Shown: positions 12,501 through 25,341, counted from the stretch's first letter. The stretch is DNA of 42,731 nucleotides from Bifidobacteriaceae bacterium (GCA_031266115.1 JAISBQ010000088.1:1-42731); one strand, 5' to 3'. Notes: generated by a model from the sequence alone, not told the origin. Made by a program: numbers and translations.

Positions 12501-13708
12501 TCCAGTAGCAGCCGAGACACCTCGTTGCGGGAGAATTTTCGCCGGACGTCCGCGGACAGCGGACCGAAGTTGATCTGGTATCGCATCGCGCCCTGTGACG
12601 TGGCACCCGAGTAGTAGAAGACTTCGTTGCTGGCGTCGATGGAGGCCCGTCCGTCCGTCATCGTCATCTGCAACGTCTTGGGGCTCGAATAGCTCGTGGC
12701 CCCGCCGGGCTCGGCGATGAGCCCTCGGGCAAGAACGGCCTGGGCCGGCACGATCTCCTCGAATTGTTGCTGGGCGTACTCAGGGTCGCTGCGTGAGACC
12801 GTGCCGTGGACGGAGGCGTACGTCTTCCCGTCGGTGAACAGTGCCCCGCGCAGCCTGGAGAACTCGACCAGGAACGACTTCTTGCCATCCCAGACCTCGG
12901 TGATCGGGTCTGTGGGTGCCAAGGCGGGTTCGGCGGCGGTGAATGTCAGGGTTTCGGTGAGGTTGGTGGTACCGGAGAGGAACTCGATGGGGAAGGCCTC
13001 ACCCGAACGCTCGATCGCGGTCGTAGTACCCAGCCTGCCCGTGTAGTGGGTCCGGTATCGGGCCGATCCGTCGATGGGGCGCACCATGACGCTCACATCC
13101 TGCGCGGGGACGGCGGACAGGGTCAGCGTGATGGTCTTGGACCCGCCAGGCGCAAGGTCCAGGTCGCCCGTGATGGCCACGGTCAGGTCCTGCTGGGCGT
13201 AGCCCTCGTCCCGCGGTTCGGCCGCCGCCGCGATCTGGAGACCGCTGGACTCGATCTGGGACAACAGCGAGGACACCGAGGACCGGTGGGCGTCCGTGAG
13301 TGGCTTGTCGGTGAAGTAGGTCTCGTTCAGCCGGGCCACCTCGGACTCGATCTCGAACATCGTCTTGATGTCGCGGAGCGCCACTGCGGCGCCATCCACG
13401 GTCGCGGTCCGCGTCAGGTCCGTGGCGCCATCGAACACGAGCGTCTCCAGGGCGCCCGCCGCGTACGCGCGACCATCCACCACGGCCTCATGGACGATGG
13501 CGCGCCCCGCCTCGTCGACGAGCCCGAGGCTGCGGAGCATCTCCACGCTCGCGGAAAGGCTGGCCCCACCCTTCGCCAGGGCCGGCGACGTGGGCGCGGC
13601 CCACGCGAGACCGTCGAGGCTGGTCACCCCCACGGTGAGGGCGAGCGCACCCGCCAATGTTGAGGCGAGAGCGCGGTGGGCATGGGAAACAACACGTCGG
13701 TGGAACAT
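3551..13708 (-). CDS. Giant secreted multi-domain surface/adhesin-like protein (3385 aa)
   Basis: Single uninterrupted 10158-nt ORF with GGAGA 9 nt upstream of ATG 13708. It has an N-terminal Sec-type signal, and its recognisable modules are listed as separate features. No LPXTG-type sorting signal, lipobox or C-terminal TM segment was seen. Confidence 0.9.
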   Translation of the reverse strand: MFHRRVVSHAHRALASTLAGALALTVGVTSLDGLAWAAPTSPALAKGGASLSASVEMLRSLGLVDEAGRAIVHEAVVDGRAYAAGALETLVFDGATDLTRTATVDGAAVALRDIKTMFEIESEVARLNETYFTDKPLTDAHRSSVSSLLSQIESSGLQIAAAAEPRDEGYAQQDLTVAITGDLDLAPGGSKTITLTLSAVPAQDVSVMVRPIDGSARYRTHYTGRLGTTTAIERSGEAFPIEFLSGTTNLTETLTFTAAEPALAPTDPITEVWDGKKSFLVEFSRLRGALFTDGKTYASVHGTVSRSDPEYAQQQFEEIVPAQAVLARGLIAEPGGATSYSSPKTLQMTMTDGRASIDASNEVFYYSGATSQGAMRYQINFGPLSADVRRKFSRNEVSRLLLDFDDWHLISGASTIDATFGLANGPGFSTYCQSLDASMPTSARGPRSVDVGRNEPLDFPSAFVRAAAGQNSSCPNPSLFLDVGLETAVAQTPDRSHTGWNINFSQLQVSVVESLPSLVSVRAVAGTYPTGSLMPLTAVYSEPVKDPRLILPTIDERSIELPTQDAGTSEEHTFFLEVADPQMVEFTGLWTGAKSTGQDRNGVNVSTTDREPVDVSGRGAIAFPGDPVSEIVQTSVSHTQFPATATNGGVTVALAPSGPLRAEAAANQGRVRSVMASVGGVDHLFALSMNSQGTALTASFPVTSSPTFARKRVELFINDGTEAAPEWRALVGTPYYADFDVEAVILLEADDLQIQYPNAWGAPPYAIRADDPIQQLTFTHDKPAATYLAPDQFEWSLLGTDSDFGTIASIDPATGEIIPTGAAPGTVVPVLTAKNGPYADVTVTGAEIQLITDGVPYLRLPGTSGAMSIKRGEDPTLRWVSNVAYLNSTAIPPKATDYLVDVFAGDVSQVDMVSRLGETGSLGPIASATVPGEASWTVPPGLVTEVSPFGGPTYSFLVRVVNPYTPSQTLTAAGGIVVMPPPVTVELSSNADGDAVLDSHGNVRFSWTMTEFDMVYSGGFDFAIARDGVVLPGSQIVFTPGSAGAPGTFTFAEDGRLADGVGPTGGSYTLAIDPLPASQLKSIYTVSLKSRNAASAPWVYASSVLTSFNQSALQILVDGAAPQGRTTVSNAGFAATATSAELLRAYREDRLSLRSVVSVNYSSDAWRAVADRLAWESSDTSVASLHVRQGPLLKNVEANPGMTLPPATDLPLAGHRDGETTITATHAATGSQVSLDVSVETLTNKLYLFQFSPQVATDVEFTDTRGTVHRLRTDAAGSLAAYVADGIASDVKARSVSDGETYLGTLRAQALVSGERDWTRMEQYPVNRLSLLPAATVKLVLTGPDGPYVGEVLINGGIYKNGSYAAGSQLAPRGQPQAMRSDGRGTVTVEWDVSALADDGVGLEAGTVLSYAFEIRVPGNRYRPETVTVDEAVGQAARVPETTAAVQLAEARAGTFGVLARQWVLGEGGTVLSTTGARSIGVSDRQREVTLRSTMYTAGLPAPGASLRGWVVDETGTRPTSQTSRAIQHPFSTFVVVETDLVINESTLWMPTGERRSLTVKLGHPDGRTMASFTSEVSVANSVGLVLDPTDAVAEVTDSMVAGSVAKPQPSGVNKIVQYGLDFLSNIEIGNENLNVLISPTDDPFQFNTLVTTSLGSEIEHANLEPGWQVGPHSIFYDPEESVDLSFLPSQKDQIDMARGNYDPDGDLDEAIRDGGTSGLDYSFGMSGYFEGLIVYDVSRAAWRFEVVGGGFEAGGSMSYNWTNNFTVGPVPLTVSLEIGGSLAVNWGAHRLVEQATVDGVTWAWADPSRSSVTDHIVGLRVAAYIDAFAGLGFDLGVVGAKIGIFGRIGIEYNNSWLMRPSLASSADRTRYGNSLRLNGELGIKAEVKFLIFSASATLLSVEFASDLWRWNHWDLISEYWLATTGRNVDGSVAEAQAAAQAYASQFALASSMGRSVWEVENRDYLDLAPRTWPTQASLARASRVVQMVSAVAAETPTAVQTNANPYSAPVAADDGGGFVYLSDLGSTDATRTRAAWAESTATGYVDHGMIAAGGYGDAQLAFDGDLGTGMAAWVRVATGGAADYAGETAPSDVAAMAQSTEVFASVRQDGQWRTQQLTANSAPDVGPAVATTGSRAIVAWRTGLAQGSDAATVGSYGTIAYRTWDAARGWSPATEVLYSGSDGPVVGLDAEIGADGTAAVAYTTTSPDGSTQVRYAIVDTDPAAALTADQAGQGLNRVVQAIQVTSDDQPDTNPRLATATSGGEDLFVLGWHHEDRDLDTSEVTSDIRLTAFDSTGALRPDLPESLAATADGQAPAMDFHLVEGTGGRVEDLAIVWPSAEVPDDPAGTGPLAATGSLVGVRLGREGGQVMASAPTVLATAADGVSVDAHTAWGADAGSLGFLFVGSKATGQVETVPGTDGEPSASFPVTVAGIYAATGTFTSEFEVDSVLPSYQDLAVNADLPVGLTVHNTGASTITTLRVEFIDPGASQGVVARTLDDFGLAPGASTAVNVFYPVGETIVSPGYRVVADFADGTSHAVDGDLYLTFNDVGIGDIAVIKEADGERDIAVPLYNASAYPLAGSGRTVKVGFFADAGVDSPALPTISVSDDATLAAIDAGAYVTTLAEPLDVAEWLDAHGGGAEIPEDGIELYVKAWIEEDGKAIRETGDANNLTRVTFASLAASGTDSGVAVDTQMAADGSQTVAQVEVRNLSLAPRTGGSLMVSLVDDAGQVVESRWLSGSVGTLDLGPEQTVEGEVRFSGQGSEIETQYIADVAEVPYGLASLAMTGIAPEILAGGQTQYSYATVNLATTSVTARANNPAAIVEILGDGAVLGSGEGSATAVVPIGRASADGASRQTRIQVRVTAAGDPRGVATYAVAVDNRRDDGLVDLRLRSDPEPDGEWIGGSGSGGDPVAVMAWVAGPRGDWSARDLFYRLDDGPPVRVDGFDGWPVTIVSVGDGRHQVRAWVSDEAEQTLGEQTLDLRIDREGPTALESPTVRSADGTALREVGSVIVADGRQLEVSGRFADPLSGLAFVNLVAEGWVRQPLTLVDGASGLYRGLVPADVRGPLEVEVGDRAGNVTRFHVGWIAQPARGIVLTPGEDHDFGRAEAGYRQIGGGTVTLINTGHLATGPLTVQMTGANPASFAATPVSIADVPAGGRVTLQVAPVPGLAGPSVHTATMEVRGEGVSASLGLRFEVCAAAAGPRDGVDAPVAAKVTRLASPLKTLYVAKGTSVRPPIAISGTGTGVAKAALTWSSSKPSVATVDSTGRITAKATGTTTVRAKAASGVSLKLRVTVVSEARGLTSLKAKTGTTMRVGRAARITVTPRPAKATNLTVTFTSSKPSVIAVDKAGRLTAKKAGKATIRIKARGKAVSIPVRAVAG
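3554..4054 (-). other. Two C-terminal Big_2 (bacterial Ig-like group 2) modules, strongly basic
   Basis: LTWSSSKPSVATVDSTGRITAKATGTTTVRAKA and VTFTSSKPSVIAVDKAGRLTAKKAGKATIRIKA are classic Big_2 signatures (S.v.tvd..G.vta...G.a.i.a). These last 167 aa are K/R-rich, in contrast to the acidic bulk of the protein. Confidence 0.75.
4105..4425 (-). other. ASH / choice-of-anchor-D-type Ig module
   Basis: VLTPGEDHDFGRAEAGYRQIGGGTVTLINTGHLATGPLTVQMTGANPASFAATPVSIADVPAGGRVTLQVAPVP...ATMEVRGEG. Confidence 0.45.
5050..5310 (-). other. Cadherin-like beta-sandwich module
   Basis: QYSYATVNLATTSVTARANNPAAIVEILGDG...IQVRVTAAGDPRGVATYAVAVDNR fits the Y.v.V...v.v.a....a.v.i.g...i.V.a.dg..tY.i.v.R consensus I recall for the bacterial cadherin-like domain. 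Confidence 0.45.
5400..6345 (-). other. CARDB-like Ig modules (about three)
   Basis: DLPVGLTVHNTGASTITTLRVEFID, DIAVPLYNASAYPLAGSGRTVKVGFF and VAQVEVRNLSLAPRTGGSLMVSLVDDAGQVV all fit the v.v.N.G...a....v.l pattern of CARDB modules. Confidence 0.45.
6450..7650 (-). other. Beta-propeller-like repeat region
   Basis: Recurring short strand motifs: AAWVRVATGG, VFASVRQDGQWRTQQL, RAIVAWRTG, TIAYRTWDAARGWSPATEV, TAAVAYTTTSPDGSTQVRYAIVD, LFVLGWHHED, LAIVWPS. The assignment is tentative. Confidence 0.35.
7960..8560 (-). other. Unassigned beta-strand-rich Gly/aromatic core segment (~200 aa)
   Basis: GLDYSFGMSGYFEGLIVYDVSRAAWRFEVVGGGFEAGGSMSYNWTNNFTVGPVPLTVSLEIGGSLAVNWG...GLRVAAYIDAFAGLGFDLGVVGAKIGIFGRIGIEYNNSW...LRLNGELGIKAEVKFLIFSASATLLSVEFASDLWRWNHWDL. 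It shows alternating hydrophobic/polar runs separated by Gly turns. No family recognised. Confidence 0.5.
12800..13190 (-). other. Calx-beta-like module
   Basis: DLTVAITGDLDLAPGGSKTITLTLSAVPAQDVSVMVRPIDGSA...DGKKSFLVEFSRLRGALF follows the Calx-beta pattern (v.f.aGe..k.i.v.i..d...E..E.F.v.Ls...ga.l). Coordinates are approximate. Confidence 0.45.
13598..13708 (-). other. Sec signal peptide of the giant protein
   Basis: MFHRRVVSHAHR (basic), ALASTLAGALALTVGVTSL (hydrophobic), then GLAWA/AP as an AxA-like cleavage site. Confidence 0.7.
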
Positions 13709-13857: not shown

Positions 13858-15345
13858 TCAGGAACCGTCTTTGTCAGGAGCGTCATCCAGAATGGCGCGA
13901 ATCCGCTCCAGCCGCTCGGCGACCTGGCGTTCAAAGCCCCGGCCCGTAGGTGTGTAGTACCGCCGGCCGGTCAACTCTGGTGGCGCGTAGCGTTGAGCAG
14001 CGATTCCGTGAGGTTCGTCATGCGCATAGACGTATCCTTCGCCGTGTCCGATGCGCTGCGCACCGGCATAGTGGGCGTCGCGCAGGTGCGGTGGCACGAG
14101 CCCAATCCGGCCGGCGCGAATGTCGGCCAGCGCGGCGTCGATCCCTAGGTAGGCGGCGTTCGACTTGGGCGCCGTCGCCAGATATACGACGGCTTCGGCC
14201 AATGGAATCCGTCCCTCCGGCATGCCGATGAGTCCGATGGCCTGGGCGGCGGCCACCGCGATGGGCAGGGCCTGAGGATCGGCCATGCCGATGTCCTCCG
14301 CCGCCAGGACCACGATCCGGCGGGCGATGAACCGTGCGTCCTCGCCCGCCTCGATCATCCGGGCCAGGTACGCCAGCGACGCGTCCACGTCCGAGCCCCG
14401 CACCGACTTGATGAACGCCGAGATCACGTCGTAATGCTGGTCGCCGTCCTTGTCGTACCGCACGGCGGCGATATCGACAGCCCGGCGGACCGTCGCCACA
14501 TCGATCACCGGCGGCTCGCCGGCCGACTCGCTCCCGGAGTCCCGGTCCCCGGCGCCCCGGTCCCCGGCGGCATCGGAGGCGGCACCCGCCGCCGCCTCCA
14601 GGATGGTCAACGCTCGCCTGGCGTCGCCGCCGGCCAGCCGAATGAGTTGGTCGCGGGCCTCACCGTCCAGGGCGACCATCCCCGCGAGGCCGCGCTCGTC
14701 GCTCACGGCACGATCGATCAACAGCCCCTGATCGGCATCGTCCAACGGTTGAAGTGTCAGTAGGAGGGACCGGGACAGCAGCGGCGAGATCACCGAAAAC
14801 GACGGGTTCTCGGTGGTCGCGGCGATCAGCGTCACCCAGCGGTTCTCGACGGCGGGCAGCAGCGCGTCTTGCTGGGACTTGGAGAACCTGTGAACTTCGT
14901 CGATGAACAAGACGGTCTCCCGCCCGCCGGCCGCCAAGGCTCGCTTGGCGACGGTGACCACGTCTCGGATGTCCTTGACACCGGCGTTGACCGCGCTGAG
15001 CTCTGTGAACGCTCGCCCCGACCCCCGCGCCACGAGGTAGGCGAGGGTGGTCTTCCCGGTTCCCGGAGGCCCCCACAGGATCACCGACGATGGCGCCGCC
15101 CGCCCCTCCCCGCCCGCCACCAGCCGCCGCAGGGGCGCCCCAGGGGTGAGTAGGTGCCGCTGCCCAGCCACCTCATCCAGACTGCGCGGCCGCATCCGTA
15201 CGGCAAGCGGCGACCGGGGGTCGACATCCGGCAACCCGACACCGTCGCGGCCCACCGCATCGAAGAGATCCACCCGCCAAGCGTAGATCGGCGTGTGCAT
15301 GCGCGAGCCCGTGCCATGACGAGCTTCCGTGAGACACCCTCGCAC
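13858..15345 (-). CDS. rarA: Replication-associated recombination protein A (AAA+ ATPase)
   Basis: DLFD...[21 protein letters not shown], Walker [16 protein letters not shown], Walker [10 protein letters not shown], and a MgsA-type C-terminal helical domain. The true start may be the internal ATG at 15300. Confidence 0.9.
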
Positions 15346-15361
15346 TGGTGACGCGAGGCTC

Positions 15362-16573
15362 TCACCGACGCAGTGCCATCATGGGGTCAACCCGACCGGC
15401 TCGGAGCGCGGGAGCCAGGCCCGCGAACAAACCCACTCCTGCGCCGAGTATCGGGGCCAATGCGGTAATTCTCGGGTCCATGACCGGTGTCCACTCCAGG
15501 GCCCAAGAGGCCACAACCACCGACAGAGTGCCGATGCTCGCGCCGACCAGACCCGCTAGCGCGCCCACCGACACAGTCTCGGCTATGACCTGGGCGACGA
15601 TGTGCCGAGGCCGAGCACCCATGGCGCGACGCAGACCAAGCTCCCCCATGCGCTCGACCACCGACAAGAGCGTCGCGTTCGCGATCGCCGCCGCCCCGAT
15701 GAGCACGGTGATTGCCGTCAACGCCAAGAAGAGCGCAGTCATCGACGTCGCAACAGTGGTTTCCACGCGGGGAGGGTCGGCGGGAGGAAGCACGGCTATC
15801 GACTCCGGGGCATCGGGTCGCAACGCCAGGGAAAGCAACCTGCTCACCTGGTGAGCGGCTCCAGGATCGACGTCAACCACCATTGAGGCCGGAGCATCCG
15901 CCGACGGCCGTCCGAACGACTCGGCAGCAACGGCCTCGGGAATCGCGGCCCCGGCCAACACCTCGCCACGCCGTTCCACGTCAGCGAGAATGCCGACCAC
16001 GACATAAGCCGAGCCCGCGAGGTACACCGTCGCCCCGGCGTCGTCAACGTCCAGGCCCAAGCGCTGGGCCGCGGCCGATCCCAACACCGCGGCATGAATC
16101 CCGGATTCGGCTTCGAACCGTGCCAATCCCCTGCCCGAGGCAAAGGTCGGGTGTAGGGCGGCGAGATATCCGGGTGACACCGCAGTAACAGGGATCATTT
16201 GCGGGCCTGTGAAAGCGTCGATCGCAGTGACCGCCTCGGCGAGTGTCCCGGGGATCGGCCAGGCCACGCCGCATGCCCGCACCCCGGCAAGACTGCTCAC
16301 CCTGCCCTCAGCATCCTGGGGGAACGAGTACACCGAGCCGTCCGGATCCGCCTGCCCAGCGTCGTTGACATACACCTCGGTTGCCTTCAGAACGGAGAAG
16401 TCCTCCGAGATTTGCCCGGACGCCGTCGCGGTCAAACCCAAGACCGCGACGAATGCCGCGATTCCCAACGCGGTGCCCGACATCGTCCCGATCATCCGTG
16501 AGGGTCGCCCGCCCAGTGCTGCCACAGCCTCGGAAAGGACAGCACCCCACACCGCCCGGCTCGCAGCGCTCAT
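15362..16573 (-). CDS. MacB-type (FtsX family) ABC transporter permease
   Basis: 403 aa with an N-terminal TM, a ~230-aa extracytoplasmic domain and a C-terminal three-TM FtsX module ([19 protein letters not shown]...[15 protein letters not shown]). Its ATG overlaps the ATPase stop (ATGA at 16570-16573). Confidence 0.85.
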
Positions 16574-17334
16574 AGTCGCTTCAGGCCGGGTGTCGCAAGC
16601 GGTGAATATAGGTGTCTATCTACACATCCATCCGTTGTCGTGGTTACTCGCCGCGCACGCCCCGCTGCCGCAGGATCGTGCGTGACCATGACCACAGCCG
16701 ATCCCTGGGAATTCAAGACATCCAGGATGTCGAGAATCTGTTCAGTGGATCCCAAATCGAGATTCCCGGTGGGTTCATCGGCCAGCAGCAGCGCAGGTTC
16801 GTGGACGATGGCGCGCGCAACCGCCACCCGCTGCCTCTCGCCTCCAGACAGTGTTCCCGCCAGCGCATCCTTGCGCCCCACCAATCCAACCCGCTCCAAC
16901 GCAACCGCCGCACGATCCGCACGCAGGCGTCTCGGCACGCCAAGGTACGCCAATCCGAGAGCGACGTTCTCTTCAGCGGTGCGGTCCGGCATTATGTGAT
17001 AGTCCTGAAACACAAAACCGAAGGTGTACGCACGTGGTGCGCTCCGCTCGCGCTCACGCAGTCCGCTAGTATCGCGGCCCCGGATCCGCACAGCGCCGCT
17101 CGTGGGCGTGTCCAGCAGGCCAAGGATGTTGACAAACGTTGACTTCCCGGAGCCAGACGGCCCCATGATCGCCACATAGTCCCCCTCCCCGATGGCAGCG
17201 TTCACCTCCCAGAGCGCCCTCACCTCGGGAGGCCCCATGTAGACCCGAGACACTGCGACAGCCTCAACCAGCGGTTCGGGCGCGCCAGCGATCAGCGACC
17301 CAGTCTCCTCGCAACCCCGTTGTCGGCCGCTCAC
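16570..17334 (-). CDS. ABC transporter ATP-binding protein (MacB/LolD-like)
   Basis: Walker A GPSGSGKST, signature LSGGERQRVAVARA, Walker B LLLADEPTGNLD and H-loop VTHD. ATGA overlap with the adaptor stop at 17331-17334. Confidence 0.9.
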   Translation of the reverse strand: MSGRQRGCEETGSLIAGAPEPLVEAVAVSRVYMGPPEVRALWEVNAAIGEGDYVAIMGPSGSGKSTFVNILGLLDTPTSGAVRIRGRDTSGLRERERSAPRAYTFGFVFQDYHIMPDRTAEENVALGLAYLGVPRRLRADRAAVALERVGLVGRKDALAGTLSGGERQRVAVARAIVHEPALLLADEPTGNLDLGSTEQILDILDVLNSQGSAVVMVTHDPAAAGRARRVTTTTDGCVDRHLYSPLATPGLKRL

Positions 17335-18770
17335 CCAACCATCACCTTGTCGCCCACGTCCAACGTTCCGGGCACCTCAGGCGCAACCTCCGCCGTTCCA
17401 TCTACCACCATCCCCACGTGGACCGCGACCTCTCTCATAGAGCCTTCATCAGCGGACACAGTCACGGACTGCACACCGTCCGCGCCATCATGGACCGCTA
17501 TTAGAGGGACAACGAGGACCGGGCCGTCAGTAGACCCAAGGGTGACTGTGACCCGAACATCCAATCCCGACCAACTCACATCAAGTGGGGCGTCCGTGTC
17601 CACCACCAACGGATAACCCGACAGCTGCTGCACTACGTCCTCCGCAGACTCTCCCAAGGACGAGCCAGCAGGCCTGAAGACACCCACCTCGCCCACCGTC
17701 CCACCTGCTTCACGAGCGTTCACATCATCGTCAACGCGAACTCTTAGCCCGGCTCGCAGCCCTCCCTGCGACCCTTGTGGGACCACGGCCTGAATCCTTG
17801 GGACTCCCGTGATGAGCGTCGCGACCTGACCCCCTGCGGCGACAATGTCATCCCCGACGGCAGAAGTCACTTCCCGAACGATCGCGGGTAGCTTCGCCAC
17901 GAAGACAATCTCCGCGAGGGGAAGACATACCCCTGCAGCACTCTGTACCGCCGCCAAGGCTGCCTCCGCTTCGGCAAGGTCAGCCTTGCTGTATCTGACT
18001 TGCTGGCGCATTTGCGCGATATCAGCTGCCGACGCCGTCGCTCCGCTTCCAGGTGTCGAATCGCTCTCTGGTGCGCCAGCCGTGGCCTCTCCTTCCAATT
18101 TTGATTCCACCCTTGCCTCAATCATCGCCGAAAGCGTCGCACGATCACTCACAAGCTTACGCTCGGCACTGGTCACTGTCGCTTCTGCAGCCTCAATGAA
18201 CGAACCAGTCTCCGCGAGCAGATCCTCGGTAGTCCACGCCTTGTAACCCGCCGACCGATAAAACTCCCTCACAGACCTCTGCGTCGACACATCAAACGAC
18301 CCAGTCTCCCCTTCGCCATCAAGGTGACCTAGGTCCACCAGTGCCTTCTGCACCTGCCGGACATCAACACCTTCGTCACCGGGAACTATATCGCGATATG
18401 CCGGGACCGTACCAGGAAGGACGAACAACGGCCGACCCGCCACTCCCGCAACTACTCCCCCAGACGCCACACTCTCCCCAGCCTCAACAGGCAATCTCGT
18501 CACAATCCCGCGAAGCCTCTCCGACTGGACCTTCACGACGACAGTATCCGACTCCACCACCGTTCCCCGCACCACAAGGGACGAGGTCAGGTCCCGAATC
18601 GCGACCGGTTCGGTCAACGGGGCCTGCGTCGGGGGCCGTGATGACGCGAGTTGCTGGGCAGGCGATCGAATCGCCAGCCCAGCAATATGCCCGCCAAGAG
18701 ACACAGCCAACGCGCTCAAAGCTACCGTCAACAACACGCGGTCCCGCTTCACTATCCCCATCGCTCTCAA
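17331..18770 (-). CDS. HlyD/MacA-type membrane-fusion adaptor with embedded peptidoglycan-binding domain
   Basis: N-terminal TM (VLLTVALSALAVSLGG). PG_binding_1-like segment GDEGVDVRQVQKALVDLGHLDGEGETGSFDVSTQRSVREFYRSAGY. Coiled-coil stretch (AEATVTSAERKLVSDRATL...IAQMRQQVRYSKADLAEAEAALAAVQ). Beta-barrel-like C-terminal part. ATGA overlap with the upstream lipoprotein at 18767-18770. Confidence 0.75.
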   Translation of the reverse strand: MRAMGIVKRDRVLLTVALSALAVSLGGHIAGLAIRSPAQQLASSRPPTQAPLTEPVAIRDLTSSLVVRGTVVESDTVVVKVQSERLRGIVTRLPVEAGESVASGGVVAGVAGRPLFVLPGTVPAYRDIVPGDEGVDVRQVQKALVDLGHLDGEGETGSFDVSTQRSVREFYRSAGYKAWTTEDLLAETGSFIEAAEATVTSAERKLVSDRATLSAMIEARVESKLEGEATAGAPESDSTPGSGATASAADIAQMRQQVRYSKADLAEAEAALAAVQSAAGVCLPLAEIVFVAKLPAIVREVTSAVGDDIVAAGGQVATLITGVPRIQAVVPQGSQGGLRAGLRVRVDDDVNAREAGGTVGEVGVFRPAGSSLGESAEDVVQQLSGYPLVVDTDAPLDVSWSGLDVRVTVTLGSTDGPVLVVPLIAVHDGADGVQSVTVSADEGSMREVAVHVGMVVDGTAEVAPEVPGTLDVGDKVMVG

Positions 18771-19759
18771 CCCGTCTGGGCCGGTGAAGCCGGCATCCCT
18801 CTCAGGTAGCTCTCGATCTCTCCAACCAGCTCGTCCAGGGCACCGCGGTTCGCATCGATATATTCCTGGTCATAGGCTGCTTGTATCCCCGCTGCTCTTC
18901 CTATCAGGTTCGTTTCAATCTTACACTCCACGTCGACGACCGCCGTAGCACTCGAGGCCTCGCCACCATAACTGCTCGAGATGGCATCAATCGGACTCGC
19001 ATAGTCGAGTCCCTGGCCATTCATACACTCCGACCAATCGCTCACGGCCTCTTCGTATCGAGAATCACCCGCGGCCAGTACCGGTCCCCCGTCAGGGAGT
19101 CCACTTGCTTCCAGAAGAATCATAGGCGTATCACCCCCGGGAAGTGATTCGAGTACTTCGCCTTCGCAGGAACTCACCACACTCTGATCACTATCGGTAC
19201 CCGCACGCATATTCAAGCCATCGGGAGTCACAGGAGGTCGGGCGTACCCGTAGATAGGTGCATTCACAGGGTCGAAAAAGCCCCAAAGAGAAGACCGAAC
19301 AACCCGATCGCGCACCCGCCCCTCGATGAACGAGACAACGTCAGACGAGTCATCGTATCCGTAAGACGCTGCGACGCCAGCTCTTGCGAGACACTCAGTC
19401 ACGGCCGCTACACGCGCGACTTCGATCGCCACTATCTGCGAGGCTGTCGGCAAATAGGCGTCCATTGGGCGAACAACCTGCGCTGGATCTGTCACAACAC
19501 TCGGAGGAGCCGTGAGAACCGGCTGCGACCCCACGGGCGCCGAGCCCGTCGGCGTCGTACCAGACCACCTGGAACTATCGCCTTCGCTGCACGCTCCCAC
19601 CAGCAAGCCGAGGCCAAGCGCAGCGGGCAACAGCACAGCGCGCGTTAGCAAGCGCCCGGGCGCCCCCGATAAGCGCCCGCGCACCCCACCGACCGTCTCA
19701 CGCACTTCACCAACTCCTCCGCGTCGAGCCACTGCTATTCGCAATACCGTGCCATCCAT
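18767..19759 (-). CDS. Secreted lipoprotein, unknown function (four-Cys), first gene of the ABC module
   Basis: Signal peptide with lipobox LLVGAC. The mature part has two Cys pairs (TECLARAGV...SSCEGE and WSECMNGQGL...VECKIE). The start codon is uncertain because of a long basic N-region. Confidence 0.75.
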   Translation of the reverse strand: MDGTVLRIAVARRGGVGEVRETVGGVRGRLSGAPGRLLTRAVLLPAALGLGLLVGACSEGDSSRWSGTTPTGSAPVGSQPVLTAPPSVVTDPAQVVRPMDAYLPTASQIVAIEVARVAAVTECLARAGVAASYGYDDSSDVVSFIEGRVRDRVVRSSLWGFFDPVNAPIYGYARPPVTPDGLNMRAGTDSDQSVVSSCEGEVLESLPGGDTPMILLEASGLPDGGPVLAAGDSRYEEAVSDWSECMNGQGLDYASPIDAISSSYGGEASSATAVVDVECKIETNLIGRAAGIQAAYDQEYIDANRGALDELVGEIESYLRGMPASPAQTG

Positions 19760-19805
19760 CCTAGTTCACAACAATCCTATCTATCAACGCAGAGCCGGAA
19801 CAGTG

Positions 19806-20156
19806 CTAATCCACATGGATCTGCACTATCCTTGCGAGAGACTGGGGAAATGGATCGCTCGCCCATTTTCCGAAATACCTCGTATATCTGGATGAATTCC
19901 AGTAGTACGCGAAAGAACCAGCGTTGTTGCCAGCTCGAAATGCACCAACATTGTAGAGCTCGACCAAGACGTTTCCGCTGTTCGCCCAGCAGGTGGTTGC
20001 ATCGGAATAGAGAGTGAGCCAGTCGTTGCGCGAGCCGCATGGGTTGATGCGATTGATCGCGTAGGCGCCGTTCGCGCCTAAAGCAATAGACAAGAAAGAG
20101 GCGAGCAACGCCCCGACGAAGAGTCTGAGCGCTGAGCGGGTTAGCCGTTGTTTCAT
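19806..20156 (-). CDS. Small Sec-secreted two-Cys protein, probable Streptomyces killer-toxin-like (SKLP) / AFP1-like family
   Basis: 116 aa with GGAAGGA 7 nt upstream of ATG 20156. A 33-aa signal peptide ends AYA, leaving an 83-aa mature protein starting INRINPCGSRNDWLTLYSDATTCWANSGNVLVELYNVGAFRAGNNAGSFAY. The INR..C, TxC[FW]AN[AS]G and GNN motifs match the ~85-aa Streptomyces killer-toxin-like/antifungal proteins as I remember them. Local G+C is low: 46 percent by hand count over 19861-19960. Confidence 0.55.
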   Translation of the reverse strand: MKQRLTRSALRLFVGALLASFLSIALGANGAYAINRINPCGSRNDWLTLYSDATTCWANSGNVLVELYNVGAFRAGNNAGSFAYYWNSSRYTRYFGKWASDPFPQSLARIVQIHVD

Positions 20157-20214
20157 GGTTTGATCCTTCCGCGAGACAGTAATCTGGGTCCCAATGGTCG
20201 CCTGTCAGAGCCGA

Positions 20215-20241
20215 CGCTCCGACACTGCCGCCTTCGGAGCG
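20215..20241 (-). terminator. GC-rich hairpin between the two small-protein genes
   Basis: cgctccga / tcggagcg form an 8-bp perfect stem with an 11-nt loop. There is no clear U-tract, so function is uncertain. Confidence 0.2.
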
Positions 20242-20307
20242 CCCACACGCGCACAGAGGAATTGCCAGGCTTGGTGACGAGGGCGCCGTCGGCCAAGACG
20301 CCAATAG

Positions 20308-20658
20308 TCATAGGATAGTGATATTCAGGACGGTGTTAAGGTCACGGCTATAGGTGACCGCACTCCACTTCGCAAAGTGAGCAATAACAGGAGTGTTTCG
20401 GGAATTGAAGCTGAAATACCCGGCATTGTTTCCGCTTCTGAATGCGCCTATATTGTAGAGCCTGACCGAAACGTTTCCGCCGTTCGCCCAGCAGGTGGTT
20501 GCATCAGAATAGAAGATCAGCTAGTCGTGACGCGAGCCGCACGGGTTGATACGGTTGATCGCCTGGGCGCTGGCCAGACCGACCGACGCCGAAAGAACGA
20601 ACGCGAGAGTTACCGAGAGTAAGACCCGTATGGATCGCGGTGATCGCAGTGCTGCCAT
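20308..20658 (-). pseudogene. Paralog of 19806-20156 interrupted by an in-frame amber codon
   Basis: GAAAGG lies 7 nt upstream of ATG 20658, and a 33-aa signal peptide ends AQA. My translation is INRINPCGSRHD-TAG-LIFYSDATTCWANGGNVSVRLYNIGAFRSGNNAGYFSF...LNITIL-TGA. The TAG at 20521-20523 sits exactly where copy 1 has Trp (TGG). The frame is otherwise intact through the stop at 20308. Confidence 0.7.
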
Positions 20659-20707
20659 AGCCAAGCCTTTCGATGTTGACGCTGGGTCGTCATGCCCACT
20701 GGTGGCA

Positions 20708-20737
20708 AATGTAGTTCTCGACACGAGTCGGCGTCAA
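20708..20737 (-). promoter_or_regulatory. Candidate sigma-A-type promoter upstream of the small-protein/ABC cluster
   Basis: On the minus strand: TTGACG (20737-20732), an 18-nt spacer, then TACATT (20713-20708), about 50 nt upstream of ATG 20658. Confidence 0.3.
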
Positions 20738-21264: not shown

Positions 21265-23496
21265 GTGTTCAACCGCCTGGCGCGAGGGATCGCCCGCCAC
21301 CCGCTGTGGACCATCGTCGCCTGGCTCGGCATCGCCGCCGCCAGCATCGCGCTCGCCACCGTGGGTGTCACCGGGCAGTCGCTCTTCGACAGGGTCAACT
21401 CGGGAGAACCGGTCGCGGTTGATTCGGAGTCCACGCGCGCGGACACGATCATCGCCGACGCCTCCACCACGGGGCAATCGCTCACCCTGATCATCGGCAA
21501 CGTGGACATGGCCGACCCCCAGCAGGTTGCCTCGCTGACACCGCCGATGGCGCAGGGCGCCGAGACCCTCGCCGCGACGCCCGGCGTGGCCTCGGCCGTC
21601 ACGCCTGTGATCCTCCCGGACGGACCCGCCAACCCGGCCGCCGCCCCGCTGCTCGCCGCGAACGGCCGCGGGTTGCTCATGGTGGTCGAACTGGATAAGG
21701 ACCTCGACGCGAATGCCGAGTCCGATGCCGTGGACCGCGTAGTCGCCGAGCTGGACACCGTCGCCGCCGCCGTCCGCGACGCCGTGCCCGATGCCACCTC
21801 ATCGGTGGGCGGCGCCCCCCTCATCGCCGACGCGATCATCGGCCAAATGGAGAAGGATCTGACCACGGGCGAGCTGGTCGCCCTGCCCATCGCGCTCATC
21901 GTCATGGTGGTGGTGTTCGCCGGTTTCGCCGCAGCCTTCATGCCGCTGTTCGCCGCCCTCGCCGCAATCGCCAGCGCACTCGGTGCACTGTTCGCCACCA
22001 CGTACATCACCGATGTCCACACCTCGGTGATCAACGTCGTCACCATCATCGGCGTCGGTTTGTCGATCGATTACGGACTCCTGATTGTTTCCCGGTTCCG
22101 TGAGGAATTGAGAGCGCGTTCGTCCGGGGATCGCACCCATCGCACCGCGCATCTCACGGTACGTGCCCTCAGCGCCACGCTGGCCACCGCCGGGCGCACG
22201 GTCACATTCTCCGCGCTGACCATCGCCGCCTCGGTGGCCGGGCTTGTGGCCTTCAAACCGTCCATCCTGAGGACATACGGGCTGGCCGGCTTCGTCATCG
22301 TGGTCATCGCCCTGTTGACCGCCATCACGCTGGTCCCAGCCTGCCTCGCGCTGCTCGGCGAACGCATGGCCCGACCGTCGATCCTCGCCCGGATCCCCGT
22401 GATCGGGCGAGCGTTTCGTCACCGCGCCGAGATTGCCCCCGAAACCGGCGTCTTCTCCCGCCTCGCGAGCGCCGTGCAGGGCAAGCCGTGGGTCGTCATC
22501 GTCGGTGTGCTCGCGGTGTTAGGCCTGTTGGCTAGCCCGGCCATGCACATGTCGGTCCACTCCTCCACCGTGGAGTTCCTGCCCGCGAAGTCGGACCAAC
22601 GCCAATGGCTGGAACAACTCCGCAGCGAATACCCGGCCACCGCGACAGCCCCGATCATCCTCGTCAGCCTTGGTGATGCGGACCAGACCCAAGCCTTTGC
22701 GGACGATGACGTCGCCTCCCTGGACGCTGTCAGTTCCGTGACCACGGTCCCGCGCGACGGCTACACCGAGGTCCGCGTCACGCTCACCACCGACGATCCC
22801 CAGGGCGCCGAGGCCCGCCAGGCCGTCGCCGACATCCGGGCGCTGAACCCCGGTTTCGAGGTGCTGGTCACGGGCCAGGCCGGCCAGCTCGCGGACTACA
22901 TGGACCAGCTCGCGGCGGGCGCACCATGGGCGGCGGTGATCGTCGCCCTGGCCACCTTGCTGCTGCTGTTCGCCATGACCGGGTCCGTGCTCATCCCCAT
23001 CAAGGCGCTGATCACCAACGTCCTTTCTCTTGGCGCCTGCATGGGCGTGTTGACGTGGATATTCCAGGACGGCCACCTCGCCGGCCAGCTCGGTTTCACG
23101 CCCCAATCGGGGATCGAAAGCTACATCGTGGTGCTCCTGATGATTTTTGGCTTCGGCCTCGCCATGGACTACGAGATGTTCCTCATTTCCCGCATCAAGG
23201 AAAGCTGGGACGCGGGGATGGATTCGGGCGCGGCCGTCCGCCAGGGGTTACAACGCTCGGGCCGAATCATCACCTCGGCGGCCCTCATCATCATCGTGGT
23301 ATTCGCGGGGTTTGCGGCGGGACAACTGGTCATCATCAAGCAGATCGGCGTGGGCCTGGCGATCGCCGTCGCGCTGGATGCCACCTTGATCCGGATGCTG
23401 CTCGTCCCAGCGACGATGACGGTCCTCGGCCGCTGGAATTGGTGGTCACCCACGTGGATGGCGGGCCTACGCGACCGGATGCGCCTGTCGCACTGA
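21265..23496 (+). CDS. MMPL-family (RND superfamily) membrane transporter
   Basis: 743 aa with a GTG start and a two-fold architecture of TM, extracytoplasmic loop and five-TM bundle. Contains the paired hallmark motifs GLSIDYGLLIVSRFREEL and GLAMDYEMFLISRIKE. Confidence 0.9.
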   Translation: MFNRLARGIARHPLWTIVAWLGIAAASIALATVGVTGQSLFDRVNSGEPVAVDSESTRADTIIADASTTGQSLTLIIGNVDMADPQQVASLTPPMAQGAETLAATPGVASAVTPVILPDGPANPAAAPLLAANGRGLLMVVELDKDLDANAESDAVDRVVAELDTVAAAVRDAVPDATSSVGGAPLIADAIIGQMEKDLTTGELVALPIALIVMVVVFAGFAAAFMPLFAALAAIASALGALFATTYITDVHTSVINVVTIIGVGLSIDYGLLIVSRFREELRARSSGDRTHRTAHLTVRALSATLATAGRTVTFSALTIAASVAGLVAFKPSILRTYGLAGFVIVVIALLTAITLVPACLALLGERMARPSILARIPVIGRAFRHRAEIAPETGVFSRLASAVQGKPWVVIVGVLAVLGLLASPAMHMSVHSSTVEFLPAKSDQRQWLEQLRSEYPATATAPIILVSLGDADQTQAFADDDVASLDAVSSVTTVPRDGYTEVRVTLTTDDPQGAEARQAVADIRALNPGFEVLVTGQAGQLADYMDQLAAGAPWAAVIVALATLLLLFAMTGSVLIPIKALITNVLSLGACMGVLTWIFQDGHLAGQLGFTPQSGIESYIVVLLMIFGFGLAMDYEMFLISRIKESWDAGMDSGAAVRQGLQRSGRIITSAALIIIVVFAGFAAGQLVIIKQIGVGLAIAVALDATLIRMLLVPATMTVLGRWNWWSPTWMAGLRDRMRLSH

Positions 23497-23580: not shown

Positions 23581-25341
23581 TCATCGTCCGCGATCCTCGG
23601 GTTCGGCGTCCACCCCGGCCTCGCGGCGTTGCGTGGGGGTGATGGGTGCCGGAGCGCCGGTCAACGGATCGGCGCCGCGCCCGGACTTGGGGAACGCGAT
23701 GACCTCGCGGATCGAGGGTGCGCCGGCCAGCAGGGCAACGATCCGGTCCCAGCCCATCGCGATGCCGCCGTGGGGGGGTGCGCCGTACTGGAAGGCATCC
23801 AAGAGCCACCCGAACTTCTCCCTGGCCTCGGCCTCCCCGATGCCCATGACGGCGAACACCCGCTCCTGGACGTCGCGACGGTGGATACGGATTGACCCTC
23901 CACCGATCTCGTTGCCGTTGCACACGATGTCGTAGGCGTACGCCAGCGCTTCCCCCGGATCGTCCTCGAACCGGTCCAGCCACTCAGGGGTCGGCGATGT
24001 GAAGGCGTGGTGCACGGCGGTCCAGGCGCCCGACCCGACGGCCACGTCCTCGTCTTCGTCCACGGGCTTGAACAGGGGTGCGTCGACGATCCACACGAAC
24101 GACCACTGCGACTGATCGATCAGCCCCAGCCTCCCGGCGATCTCCACGCGCGCCGCACCGAGCAACGCGCGCGAGGGACCGGCCTTGCCCGCCGCGAAGA
24201 ACACACAGTCTCCCGGCCCGGCGCCGACGGCTCCGGGCAGCGCGTGACGCTCCGCCTCGGACAGGTTCTTCGCGACCGGGCCACCCAGCGTCCCATCCTT
24301 GCCGATCGTCACGTACGCGAGACCTCGGGCCCCGCGCTGCTTGGCCCATTCCTGCCACGCGTCGAAGGTCCGCCGCGGTTGGGACGCCCCACCCGGCATG
24401 ACCACGGCCCCGACATATGGGGCTTGGAACACGCGGAACCCGGTCCCGGCGAACAGCGATGTCACCTCGGTCAATTCCACGCCGAACCGCAAGTCCGGCT
24501 TGTCCGTGCCGAACCGCCGCATCGCCTCGGCATAGGTCATCCGCGCGATGGGCCGGGGAATCTCGACGTCGATGAGTCGCCACACGGCCGCCAGCACATC
24601 CTCACCCACGGTGATGACGTCGTCTTGATCGACGAACGACATCTCGATGTCCAGTTGGGTGAACTCGGGTTGGCGGTCAGCCCGGAAATCCTCGTCCCGG
24701 TAGCACCGCGCTAGCTGGTAGTAACGCTCCATTCCCGCGACCATGAGTAGCTGCTTGAACAACTGGGGCGACTGTGGCAGGGCGTACCAACACCCCGGGG
24801 CAAGACGTGCGGGGACAAGGAAGTCCCGTGCCCCTTCGGGTGTCGAGTGGGTCAACGTGGGCGTCTCGATCTCGGTGAACCCGTGATCGTCCAGCACGCG
24901 TCGGGCCGCGCGACCCACATCGGACCGCAACCGCAGTGCCGCACCCGGCGCCGTCCGGCGCAGGTCGAGGTATCGGTATCGCAGCCGTGTCTCCTCCCCC
25001 ACGTCGATGTGATCGTCGATCTGGAACGGCAGCGGTGCGCACGCATTGAGGACGATGACGTCGCTCGCCAGCACTTCCACCGCGCCTGAGGCTAGGGCCG
25101 GGTTCTCGTTGCCATCCGGCCTGCGCCGAACCGTCCCCACCACTTGGACGACATATTCGCTGCGCAACTCATGCGCGAGGCCCTCATCGTGGATGACCAC
25201 TTGGGCCAGACCGCTCGCGTCGCGCAGGTCGATGAACGCGACACCTCCATGATCACGCCGTGACGCGACCCAGCCGGCCACGGTGACGGTTCGGTCGATG
25301 TCGGCGGCCCGAAGCCGTCCGGCGTAGTCAGTGCGCAGCAC
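23581..25341 (-). CDS. aspS: Aspartate--tRNA ligase
   Basis: N-terminal OB fold ([26 protein letters not shown]), class II motifs ([24 protein letters not shown]; GGGSIRIH) and GAD insertion. 586 aa. Confidence 0.95.

What the first reader, a model, noticed from the sequence alone, without database searches (positions are those of the whole stretch)
15362..20724. Co-directional cluster: killer-toxin-like secreted proteins + Cys-lipoprotein + PG-binding adaptor + MacB-type ABC, wedged into a conserved backbone
Six same-strand genes run from a promoter-like TTGACG-18nt-TACATT (20708-20737). In order they are small secreted protein copy 2 (amber-disrupted), copy 1, a lipoprotein 47 bp downstream, an adaptor, an ATPase and a permease. 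The last four are translationally coupled by ATGA overlaps at 18767-18770, 17331-17334 and 16570-16573. From memory, the surrounding order (pimA, ruvCAB, yajC-secDF-apt-relA, PPIase, hisS, aspS, then rarA) is the conserved actinobacterial arrangement, as in M. tuberculosis. That makes this cluster, plus the divergent MmpL, look like an insertion between aspS and rarA. The small-gene end is compositionally foreign: 46 percent G+C hand-counted over 19861-19960, against 69 percent over 7501-7600. Both small proteins carry their own Sec signal peptides, so the ABC machine is not needed to export them. A tripartite MacB-type pump tethered to peptidoglycan is more plausibly a self-protection or envelope-repair device, or it extracts and handles the lipoprotein. 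I do not know of a described system pairing this small-protein family with a MacB/adaptor/lipoprotein module.
Basis: partly seen in the sequence, partly recalled or inferred. Interest (0 to 1): 0.8.

Follow-up and report, generated by a model that had tools for sequence, protein, structure and literature searches.

The report
Secreted AFP1-like protein, lipoprotein, MacB pump cassette
A small secreted protein related to a Streptomyces antifungal protein is always encoded next to a previously undescribed lipoprotein, and often next to a wall-tethered MacB-type pump, in many actinobacteria, which looks like an undescribed toxin-plus-self-protection cassette.

Summary
The window comes from a Bifidobacteriaceae MAG.

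The small protein belongs to the AFP1/SKLP family. It scores just above the Pfam Crystall_2 threshold, and its model matches AFP1 (PDB 1g6e) at TM 0.83.

The lipoprotein is a new family. Its lipobox Cys and four other Cys are conserved. It has no Pfam, NCBIfam or PDB match, and its confident all-alpha model matches no PDB fold.

- In every locus found through this small-protein subfamily (motif TTCWANAG) that had downstream DNA (7 of 7, plus the window), the lipoprotein gene follows directly.
- The full order (small, lipoprotein, peptidoglycan-binding adaptor, ATPase, MacB permease) recurs in Sinomonas, Streptomyces, Kitasatospora and a metagenome contig, in unrelated flanks.
- Lipoprotein genes also occur without the small gene.
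- Two AFP1-type genes have no lipoprotein nearby.

This asymmetry fits a secreted toxin with a lipoprotein immunity partner and an optional pump (confidence about 0.45). No function has been tested.

MmpL is not part of the cassette. Horizontal acquisition rests on codon composition alone. No paper describing this pairing was found.

The parts
20708..20737 (-). Promoter-like site TTGACG-18-TACATT upstream of small-protein copy 2
   Evidence: 9 of 12 matches. The region has 3 such sites against 1.2 +/- 1.2 expected, so this is weak evidence on its own.
20308..20658 (-). Small secreted protein, copy 2, disrupted by an in-frame TAG at 20523-20521. It has a Sec-type signal peptide ending AQA. Its C-terminal half differs from copy 1 but still fits the family.
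   Evidence: TAG aligns with TGG (W46) of copy 1. The mature N-half is 82% identical to copy 1 and the C-half 19%. The C-half hits the family HMM at E 6e-19.
20312..20339 (-). Promoter-like site TTAACA-16-TATCCT upstream of copy 1, inside the end of copy 2
   Evidence: Consensus match only.
19806..20156 (-). Small secreted protein, copy 1 (116 aa). Signal peptide ends AYA. The mature protein is about 83 aa and about 9.3 kDa, with 2 Cys, and belongs to the AFP1/SKLP (Crystall_2) family.
   Evidence: PF09076, 25.7 bits, cutoff 25; 1g6e, E 0.018; Foldseek top hit 1g6e, TM 0.83, rmsd 1.7 A.
19758..19787 (-). Promoter-like site TTGATA-18-TAGGAT in the gap between copy 1 and the lipoprotein gene. 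It could drive the lipoprotein and pump genes independently of the small genes.
   Evidence: Consensus match only. It overlaps ATG 19759, which favours the GTG 19705 start.
18767..19759 (-). Lipoprotein of a new family. Lipobox is LLVGAC (Cys57 of the long ORF). Four further conserved Cys. Predicted all-alpha domain with no PDB fold match. Likely true start is GTG 19705.
17331..18770 (-). Membrane-anchored adaptor resembling a membrane fusion protein, with an inserted PG_binding_1 domain and a coiled-coil segment
   Evidence: orthologue in L008 hits HlyD_3, 22.6 bits, cutoff 22.2; profile hits peptidoglycan-binding domains at E 8e-7 and a MexC-like adaptor at E 0.0015.
16570..17334 (-). ABC ATPase of the MacB/LolD/FtsE type, with intact motifs
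   Evidence: best NCBIfam matches FtsE, MacB, DarD, LolD and the lactococcin-972-group ATPase, all below their cutoffs.
15362..16573 (-). MacB-type permease (MacB_PCD extracytoplasmic domain plus FtsX C-terminal domain)
   Evidence: best PDB hits 5xu1 Spr0694-0695 and E. coli MacB.

Best explanation
This is a toxin-plus-self-protection cassette. The small genes encode a Sec-exported, disulfide-bonded beta-sandwich protein of about 9 kDa from the AFP1/SKLP family. I infer that this subfamily acts on a component of the bacterial envelope that the producer also has.

The lipoprotein encoded directly downstream sits on the outer face of the membrane. I infer that it binds or blocks the small protein there, as an immunity partner.

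In a subset of loci, including this window, a MacB-type ABC transporter and a membrane-fusion-type adaptor anchored to peptidoglycan add a second layer. ATP-driven movements of the extracytoplasmic domain would expel the protein from the membrane-wall space.

Shown: gene content, family assignments and conserved gene order. Inferred: toxicity, target, binding and direction of transport.
For: 1. Family. Crystall_2 scores just above threshold. The sequence matches AFP1 and both Cys align. The model has pLDDT 86.9 and its top PDB match is AFP1, TM 0.83. AFP1 is a secreted non-enzymatic antifungal (PMC10796067).

2. Strict one-way coupling. All 7 informative loci found through the small protein (L004, L005, L007, L008, L009, L010, L012) have the lipoprotein gene within about 60 bp downstream. 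Of 10 metagenome or genome loci found through the lipoprotein, 6 have the small gene (L002, L003, L015, L017, L018, L019). Three have none (L001, L014, L016), and L013 has a different small secreted protein. Toxin always with partner, and partner sometimes orphaned, is the usual toxin-immunity pattern.

3. Contrast with AFP1 itself. The AFP1-type genes on S. clavuligerus pSCL4 (L025) and on a second Streptomyces plasmid (L024) have no lipoprotein or pump within 6 kb. That is expected if an antifungal needs no immunity.

4. The pump belongs to the unit. The same five-gene order occurs in the window, L008 (Sinomonas), L012, L018 (Streptomyces) and L019 (Kitasatospora), and L003 is cut off after the adaptor start. 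L022 has it with another small protein, and L001 has it reordered. In 295 kb of loci plus window, all 8 MacB-type permease hits lie next to a lipoprotein gene.

5. Co-divergence. Small-protein and lipoprotein identities co-vary across 13 loci (Mantel r 0.79; 0 of 5000 permutations reach it).

6. Toxin-locus habits. Tandem small-gene copies occur here and in L009. One copy here is knocked out, and it has a swapped C-terminal half. A decayed cassette sits in a second Bifidobacteriaceae MAG (L014).

7. Precedents. YknWXYZ protects Bacillus from its own SDP toxin (PMC4887032). Adaptors in Gram-positives are thought to clear the membrane-wall space, and MacAB handles the Sec-exported STII (PMC5985334). 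Lactococcin 972 has a putative ABC immunity transporter (PMC4055356).
Against: - No activity data exist for any member of this subfamily.
- The known relatives are antifungal, not antibacterial.
- The lipoprotein fold gives no functional clue.
- Sample sizes are small: about 25 loci, several of them short contigs, and only 2 AFP1-type controls.
- Loci were found through one conserved motif (TTCWANAG), so the subfamily sampled is narrow.
- Co-divergence can reflect shared ancestry alone.
- Protein-protein binding could not be modelled here.
- Many loci lack the pump, so it cannot be essential for protection.
Confidence: 0.45

Rival explanations
1. Dedicated release machinery. After Sec export and disulfide formation, the lipoprotein holds the small protein at the membrane surface. 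The MacB pump with its peptidoglycan-spanning adaptor then pushes it through the wall, as MacAB-TolC does for enterotoxin STII. The small protein's target would lie outside the producer, for example fungi.
For: The genes share strand and order and have 4-bp overlaps. STII is Sec-exported and then expelled by MacAB (PMC5985334). The adaptor has a peptidoglycan-binding domain. The family's known members are antifungal.
Against: At least 8 loci have a small protein and lipoprotein pair with 3 kb or more of downstream DNA and no pump (L004, L007, L013, L015, L017, L020, L021, L023). AFP1-type genes have neither partner. From general knowledge, a 9-kDa protein should pass through peptidoglycan unaided. 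Lipoprotein genes occur without any small gene (L001, L014, L016).
Confidence: 0.2
2. Envelope module with a non-toxic ligand. The lipoprotein and the MacB complex form an FtsEX-like or LprG-like device that remodels or senses the wall, or handles a lipid or glycan. The small protein would be a lectin-like wall-binding or regulatory accessory, not a toxin.
For: L001 and L014 have pump and lipoprotein without a small gene. L016 pairs the lipoprotein with an ECF sigma factor. MacB-family systems often act through extracytoplasmic partners (PMC5985334). AFP1 binds a polysaccharide. More distant lipoprotein homologues sit next to other small secreted proteins (Inhibitor_I36, Vap).
Against: Adaptors of the membrane-fusion type go with efflux-type MacB systems, not with FtsEX. 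The lipoprotein has no hydrolase or known lipid-binding fold. This reading does not explain tandem copies, the knocked-out copy, or why AFP1-type genes stand alone.
Confidence: 0.2
3. Generic antimicrobial-peptide or drug resistance pump that merely sits next to an unrelated small secreted protein gene.
For: The permease's best solved relative is the pneumococcal Spr0694-0695 pump, which is involved in antibiotic and peptide resistance (PMC5768738). Promoter-like sites could give separate transcripts.
Against: The identical five-gene order recurs in at least four other taxa with different flanks, and every MacB hit in 295 kb sits beside a lipoprotein gene. Chance adjacency is very unlikely.
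Confidence: 0.05

Closest known systems
AFP1 of Streptomyces tendae Tu901 (PDB 1g6e), with SKLP and the yeast WmKT killer toxin (Pfam Crystall_2, PF09076)
   Same: Sec signal peptide, a mature protein of about 85 aa, both Cys aligned, the shared C[WF]ANAG and GNN motifs, and the same beta-sandwich fold (TM 0.83, 27% identity).
   Different: The window's subfamily (TTCWANAG) is always followed by a lipoprotein gene. The two AFP1-type genes examined stand alone. Chitin binding or antifungal activity is untested here.
YknWXYZ of Bacillus, which protects against the cell's own SDP toxin
   Same: A Gram-positive MacB-type permease, ATPase and membrane-fusion adaptor serving self-protection against a secreted endogenous toxin (PMC4887032; PMC5985334).
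   Different: YknW is a polytopic membrane protein, not a lipoprotein. The YknX adaptor has no reported peptidoglycan-binding domain. SDP is a short peptide, not a folded 9-kDa protein. The toxin is encoded elsewhere.
Lactococcin 972 operon (lcn972-orf2-orf3)
   Same: An unmodified, Sec-type secreted bacteriocin encoded with a putative ABC immunity transporter (PMC4055356). The window ATPase scores 182.6 bits against the lactococcin-972-group model.
   Different: There is no Lactococcin_972 Pfam hit. The ATPase is below the model's cutoff of 254.85. The Lcn972 operon has no lipoprotein and no adaptor.
Lantibiotic immunity: LanI lipoprotein plus LanFEG transporter, for example NisI with NisFEG (from my own knowledge)
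   Same: Two-layer protection: a surface lipoprotein that sequesters the toxin, plus an ABC transporter that expels it from the membrane.
   Different: LanFEG is an ABC-2 type transporter, not MacB-type. The toxins are modified peptides. There is no sequence or fold relation to this lipoprotein.
MacAB-TolC with enterotoxin STII; pneumococcal Spr0693-0694-0695
   Same: MacB_PCD and FtsX architecture with a separate ATPase and adaptor. The substrate is taken from outside the membrane. STII is Sec-exported and disulfide-bonded.
   Different: There is no outer membrane or TolC here. The adaptor carries a PG_binding_1 insert. A lipoprotein is an added component.

Membership tests
Pfam Crystall_2 (PF09076) / AFP1-SKLP family | Score at or above the Pfam gathering threshold | tested here: met
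   25.7 bits against a cutoff of 25.0, which is marginal. The database's precomputed annotation also lists PF09076.
Pfam Crystall_2 (PF09076) / AFP1-SKLP family | AFP1-like beta-sandwich fold with the conserved Cys pair | tested here: met
   Model pLDDT 86.9. Top PDB match is 1g6e, TM 0.83, rmsd 1.7 A. C56 is invariant and C40 is in at least 90% of 60 homologues, and both align to AFP1 Cys.
Pfam Crystall_2 (PF09076) / AFP1-SKLP family | Chitin binding or antifungal activity | not testable with these tools
   Needs purified protein.
Bacterial lipoprotein | Signal peptide ending in a lipobox with a conserved Cys | tested here: met
   The window has LLVGAC. The Cys is invariant in 11 aligned homologues, with [LVA][AGS][GA]C-type boxes.
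MacB-type (type VII) ABC transporter | Permease with MacB_PCD extracytoplasmic domain and FtsX C-terminal domain | tested here: met
   PF12704 at 58 bits and PF02687 at 52.6 bits. PDB sequence hits to 5xu1 and MacB.
MacB-type (type VII) ABC transporter | Cognate ATPase with intact Walker A, signature, Walker B and H-loop | tested here: met
   GPSGSGKS, LSGGE, LLLADEPT and VTHD are readable in the translation. ABC_tran scores 106.7 bits.
MacB-type (type VII) ABC transporter | Membrane-fusion-protein adaptor | tested here: inconclusive
   The window adaptor hits only PG_binding_1. The L008 orthologue hits HlyD_3 just above cutoff, and the L001 orthologue hits Biotin_lipoyl_2 weakly. The adaptor profile hits a MexC-like adaptor at E 0.0015. 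No structure model was made.
Tripartite MacAB-TolC efflux pump | Outer-membrane exit duct (TolC family) | tested here: not met
   No such gene is in the cassette or in any related locus. From general knowledge, the host lineage has no outer membrane. 'Tripartite' therefore does not apply.
Lactococcin 972 system | Lactococcin_972 family bacteriocin and an ATPase above the TIGR03608 cutoff | tested here: not met
   There is no Lactococcin_972 hit. TIGR03608 scores 182.6 bits against a cutoff of 254.85.
Toxin-immunity gene pair (operational definition) | Toxin gene always next to the immunity gene, while immunity genes also occur alone | tested here: met
   All 7 informative small-protein-ascertained loci have the lipoprotein. 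Lipoprotein genes occur without the small gene in L001, L014 and L016. The sample is small.
Toxin-immunity gene pair (operational definition) | Toxicity of the small protein and protection by the partner | not testable with these tools
   Needs experiments.
Anti-phage defence systems (PADLOC) | Match to a defence-system protein model | tested here: not met
   There are no hits except a negligible LolE-type transmembrane match.

The most novel reading that the evidence does not exclude
A new class of Sec-secreted, folded antibacterial proteins in Actinomycetota, derived from the AFP1/SKLP antifungal fold. Each would be paired with an immunity lipoprotein of a previously unseen all-alpha fold. 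Protection would optionally be reinforced by a MacB pump whose adaptor is tethered to peptidoglycan. The lipoprotein family would then be a general immunity partner, because its more distant members sit next to other small secreted proteins (I36-like, Vap-like).
Probability: 0.35. Interest if true: 0.75.

Novelty: new variant of a known kind. Interest (0 to 1): 0.62.

Why it matters
If the reading is right, a fold known only for antifungal and yeast-killer proteins has been repurposed for competition between bacteria. It would come with its own immunity lipoprotein family, which has no Pfam or NCBIfam model and no match among solved structures.

It would also give a concrete role to the many actinobacterial MacB pumps whose adaptors carry a peptidoglycan-binding domain. 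Their function is unknown.

The system is directly testable, because full cassettes exist in cultivable Sinomonas, Streptomyces and Kitasatospora strains.

Tried and rejected
- The word-index homologue search with the small protein found only itself. The exhaustive representative search was needed and found 110 relatives.
Only the exact motif TTCWANAG could be scanned, which narrows the subfamily sampled.
- Look-ups of P0121 and of the window's own small protein found no record. The source annotation of the window therefore could not be seen.
- The lipoprotein has no sequence match or fold match in the PDB, and the window adaptor alone has none either.
- No tRNA, Rfam family or flanking direct repeat marks an insertion boundary.
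- PADLOC shows no defence-system relation.
- MmpL as part of the unit is rejected on composition and on its absence elsewhere.
- The Bormann 1999 AFP1 paper is not held, so the afp1 gene neighbourhood in S. tendae was not read. The near-identical S. clavuligerus gene was used instead.
- Cluster look-up of 10 small-protein representatives gave only unnamed metagenome entries.


Full report
**Source and gene set**

The small protein matches only itself in the 5.8-billion-protein index. That entry is named 'MAG: hypothetical protein LBK59_02490 [Bifidobacteriaceae bacterium]' and sits on a 42731-base contig.

On the minus strand lie these genes:

| Gene | Coordinates | Pfam evidence |
|---|---|---|
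| Permease | 15362-16573 | MacB_PCD, FtsX |
| ATPase | 16570-17334 | ABC_tran |
| Adaptor | 17331-18770 | PG_binding_1, 23.9 bits against cutoff 23 |
| Lipoprotein (330-aa ORF) | 18767-19759 | none |
| Small gene copy 1 | 19806-20156 | Crystall_2 |
| Small gene copy 2 | 20308-20658 | not scanned against Pfam; both halves hit the family HMM built from A1 |

The flanks are rarA/MgsA (13858-15345), a divergent MMPL gene (21265-23496) and aspS (23581-25341). Further along are hisS, an MBL-fold gene, a cyclophilin, DUF349, relA, secF, secD, ruvB and a GT4 glycosyltransferase.

- The promoter-like TTGACG-18-TACATT is at 20737-20708.
- Two more such sites lie just upstream of copy 1 and of the lipoprotein gene.
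- Three sites against 1.2 +/- 1.2 in shuffles is not compelling by itself.
- Copy 2 has TAG at 20523-20521, where copy 1 has TGG.
- The 4-bp overlaps are TTGA, GTGA and ATGA.
- The hand-counted G+C values are exact.
- GC3 is 0.59-0.75 in the cassette genes, 0.77-0.87 in the neighbouring housekeeping genes and 0.87 in MMPL.

The cassette is therefore compositionally distinct and MMPL is not. No tRNA, Rfam family or flanking repeat marks a boundary. Horizontal acquisition thus rests on composition only.

From my memory, M. tuberculosis also has about a dozen genes between aspS and the rarA-like gene, so 'wedged into a conserved backbone' should be read loosely.

**The small protein**

It scores 25.7 bits on Pfam Crystall_2 (cutoff 25). 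It aligns to the antifungal protein AFP1 of Streptomyces tendae (PDB 1g6e, E 0.018), including both Cys and the C-x-ANAG and GNN motifs.

The exhaustive search of 1.84 billion representatives found 110 relatives. An alignment of 60 of them shows:
- a signal peptide ending A-x-A;
- a mature start I-x-R-V-x-C;
- the motifs TTCWANAG and GNNAG;
- C56 invariant, and C40 conserved in at least 90%.

The AlphaFold model built on that alignment has mean pLDDT 86.9. Its best PDB match is 1g6e (TM 0.83, rmsd 1.7 A, 27% identity). The next matches are UmbB1 chains of the Streptomyces umbrella toxin particle, at fold level only (TM about 0.58, 8-9% identity). The 'killer-toxin-like' label is therefore justified.

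The two copies are mosaic. The mature N-half is 82% identical and the C-half 19%, yet the C-half of copy 2 still fits the family HMM.

**The lipoprotein**

The ORF has no Pfam or NCBIfam hit, and a profile of 38 family members has no PDB sequence hit. All 37 homologues found with a profile are unnamed or 'hypothetical' and carry no Pfam domain.

Eleven aligned homologues share an invariant lipobox Cys and four further invariant Cys. A 38-sequence alignment adds an invariant LPDGGP motif.

The model is confident (pLDDT above 90 for roughly residues 80-325), is all-alpha, and matches nothing in the PDB (best E 2.1, TM below 0.2).

The likely start is GTG 19705, 8 nt after GGAGGAG.

**The pump**

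The permease's closest solved relatives are the pneumococcal Spr0694-0695 pump and E. coli MacB. The ATPase matches FtsE, MacB, LolD and lactococcin-972-group models, all below their cutoffs.

The adaptor has an N-terminal membrane anchor, a PG_binding_1 insert and, in the window, a coiled-coil segment. The Streptomyces-group loci have a comparable insertion in their adaptors. Orthologues give a HlyD_3 hit just above cutoff and a weak Biotin_lipoyl_2 hit. The adaptor profile hits peptidoglycan-binding domains (E 8e-7) and a MexC-like adaptor (E 0.0015).

**Gene neighbourhoods: loci found through the small protein**

Nine loci were found through the motif TTCWANAG in genome and metagenome collections. 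Two contigs (L006, L011) end before any downstream gene could be seen. The other seven (L004, L005, L007, L008, L009, L010, L012) all carry a lipoprotein homologue within about 60 bp downstream. L009 has two tandem small genes, like the window.

**Gene neighbourhoods: loci found through the lipoprotein**

- L002, L003, L015, L017, L018 and L019 have the small gene directly upstream.
- L001, L014 and L016 have none.
- L013 instead has a Vap-like (R_equi_Vir) protein and a protein with a diphtheria-toxin T domain.

**Gene neighbourhoods: the pump**

The full order (small, lipoprotein, adaptor, ATPase, permease) recurs in:
- L008 (Sinomonas sp. ASV322);
- L012 (a metagenome contig);
- L018 (a Streptomyces assembly, GCA_042749135.1);
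- L019 (a Kitasatospora assembly, GCA_044755565.1, with an extra lipoprotein paralogue).

L003 is cut off after the adaptor start. L001 has the adaptor, a fused ATPase-permease and then the lipoprotein.

Genes outside the cassette differ in every locus.

Among loci with 3 kb or more downstream, the pump is present in 6 of 16, not counting the window. In 295 kb of loci plus window, all 8 MacB-type permease hits lie beside a lipoprotein gene. One of them is a truncated, inverted remnant in a second Bifidobacteriaceae MAG (L014).

Small-protein and lipoprotein identities co-vary across 13 loci (Mantel r 0.79; 0 of 5000 permutations reach it).

**More distant relatives**

More distant lipoprotein homologues lie on Streptomyces and Kitasatospora plasmids, next to other small secreted proteins:
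- an Inhibitor_I36 protein in L021;
- a related 148-169-aa family in L020, L022 and L023.

L022 (a S. canus plasmid) again has lipoprotein, 'peptidoglycan-binding protein', ABC ATPase and permease.

In contrast, two AFP1-type genes have no lipoprotein or pump within 6 kb. One, on S. clavuligerus pSCL4, is nearly identical to AFP1 over the stretch aligned. The other is on a second Streptomyces plasmid.

**Interpretation**

The core unit is the small protein plus the lipoprotein, and the pump is an accessory. The pattern has four elements:
- this small-protein subfamily never occurs without the lipoprotein;
- the lipoprotein sometimes occurs alone;
- the antifungal AFP1 type occurs without it;
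- small-gene copies are tandem, mosaic and partly inactivated.

This is what a secreted toxin with a dedicated immunity partner looks like. It suggests that this subfamily targets something the producer itself has.

The pump fits known self-protection by MacB-type systems in Gram-positives (YknWXYZ and SDP, PMC4887032). It also fits the view that Gram-positive adaptors clear the membrane-wall space, and the precedent that MacAB handles a Sec-exported, disulfide-bonded protein (PMC5985334). Lactococcin 972 with its putative ABC immunity transporter is another parallel (PMC4055356). From my own knowledge, so is LanI with LanFEG.

None of this shows toxicity, binding or direction of transport. 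I put the reading at about 0.45. A release-machinery reading and a non-toxic envelope-module reading are each at about 0.2.

**Novelty**

Full-text searches found no description of this pairing. The components are of known kinds, except for the lipoprotein family. The combination is undescribed. I therefore rate it a new variant of a known kind.

Noticed in passing
window 3551-13708 (-): A 3385-aa ORF with an N-terminal signal-like sequence and Big_2/Big-like domains at the C-terminus. It has no C-terminal LPXTG motif. It is probably a giant secreted or surface protein downstream of rarA.
   Followed up: partly
window 21265-23496 (+): An MMPL-family transporter whose best NCBIfam match is MmpL3 (315 bits, far below the 1400 cutoff). 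It sits in a Bifidobacteriaceae MAG, a lineage not known for mycolic acids. Its composition is native (GC3 0.87).
   Followed up: partly
window 15346-15361: Only 16 bp and no terminator-like site separate the permease stop from the rarA start. rarA may therefore be read through from the cassette.
   Followed up: no
window 20308-20658 against 19806-20156: The two small-gene copies are mosaic. The signal peptides differ, the mature N-half is 82% identical and the C-half 19%. This suggests recombination or diversification of the C-terminal half.
   Followed up: partly
L013 5859-8873: A lipoprotein homologue is preceded by a Vap-like (R_equi_Vir) 161-aa protein and a 418-aa protein with a diphtheria-toxin translocation (T) domain. 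This is another possible secreted-toxin neighbourhood.
   Followed up: partly
L014 7376-8894: A second Bifidobacteriaceae MAG (LBS27) carries the closest lipoprotein homologue (44% identity). Next to it is an inverted, truncated permease (residues 163-403, 52% identity). This is a decayed cassette.
   Followed up: partly
L020 5293-5739, L022 5301-5810, L023 5030-5479, L021 7129-7488: A second family of 148-169-aa secreted proteins, with repeated [KR]NN-x-A motifs, lies upstream of distant lipoprotein homologues. A bona fide Inhibitor_I36 protein lies downstream of another. The lipoprotein family may partner with several kinds of small secreted proteins.
   Followed up: partly
small-protein model m40ac784a014e: After AFP1, the next PDB fold matches are UmbB1 chains of the Streptomyces umbrella toxin particle (8w20/8w22, TM about 0.58, 8-9% identity). 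The Umb paper said UmbB had no structural relative among characterised proteins (PMC11062931).
   Followed up: partly
L007 7547-9787: In Actinokineospora enzanensis the pair lies directly downstream of an HTH/NB-ARC/TPR regulator. In L018 and L019 an XRE-type HTH gene is adjacent. No regulator gene is conserved across the loci.
   Followed up: no
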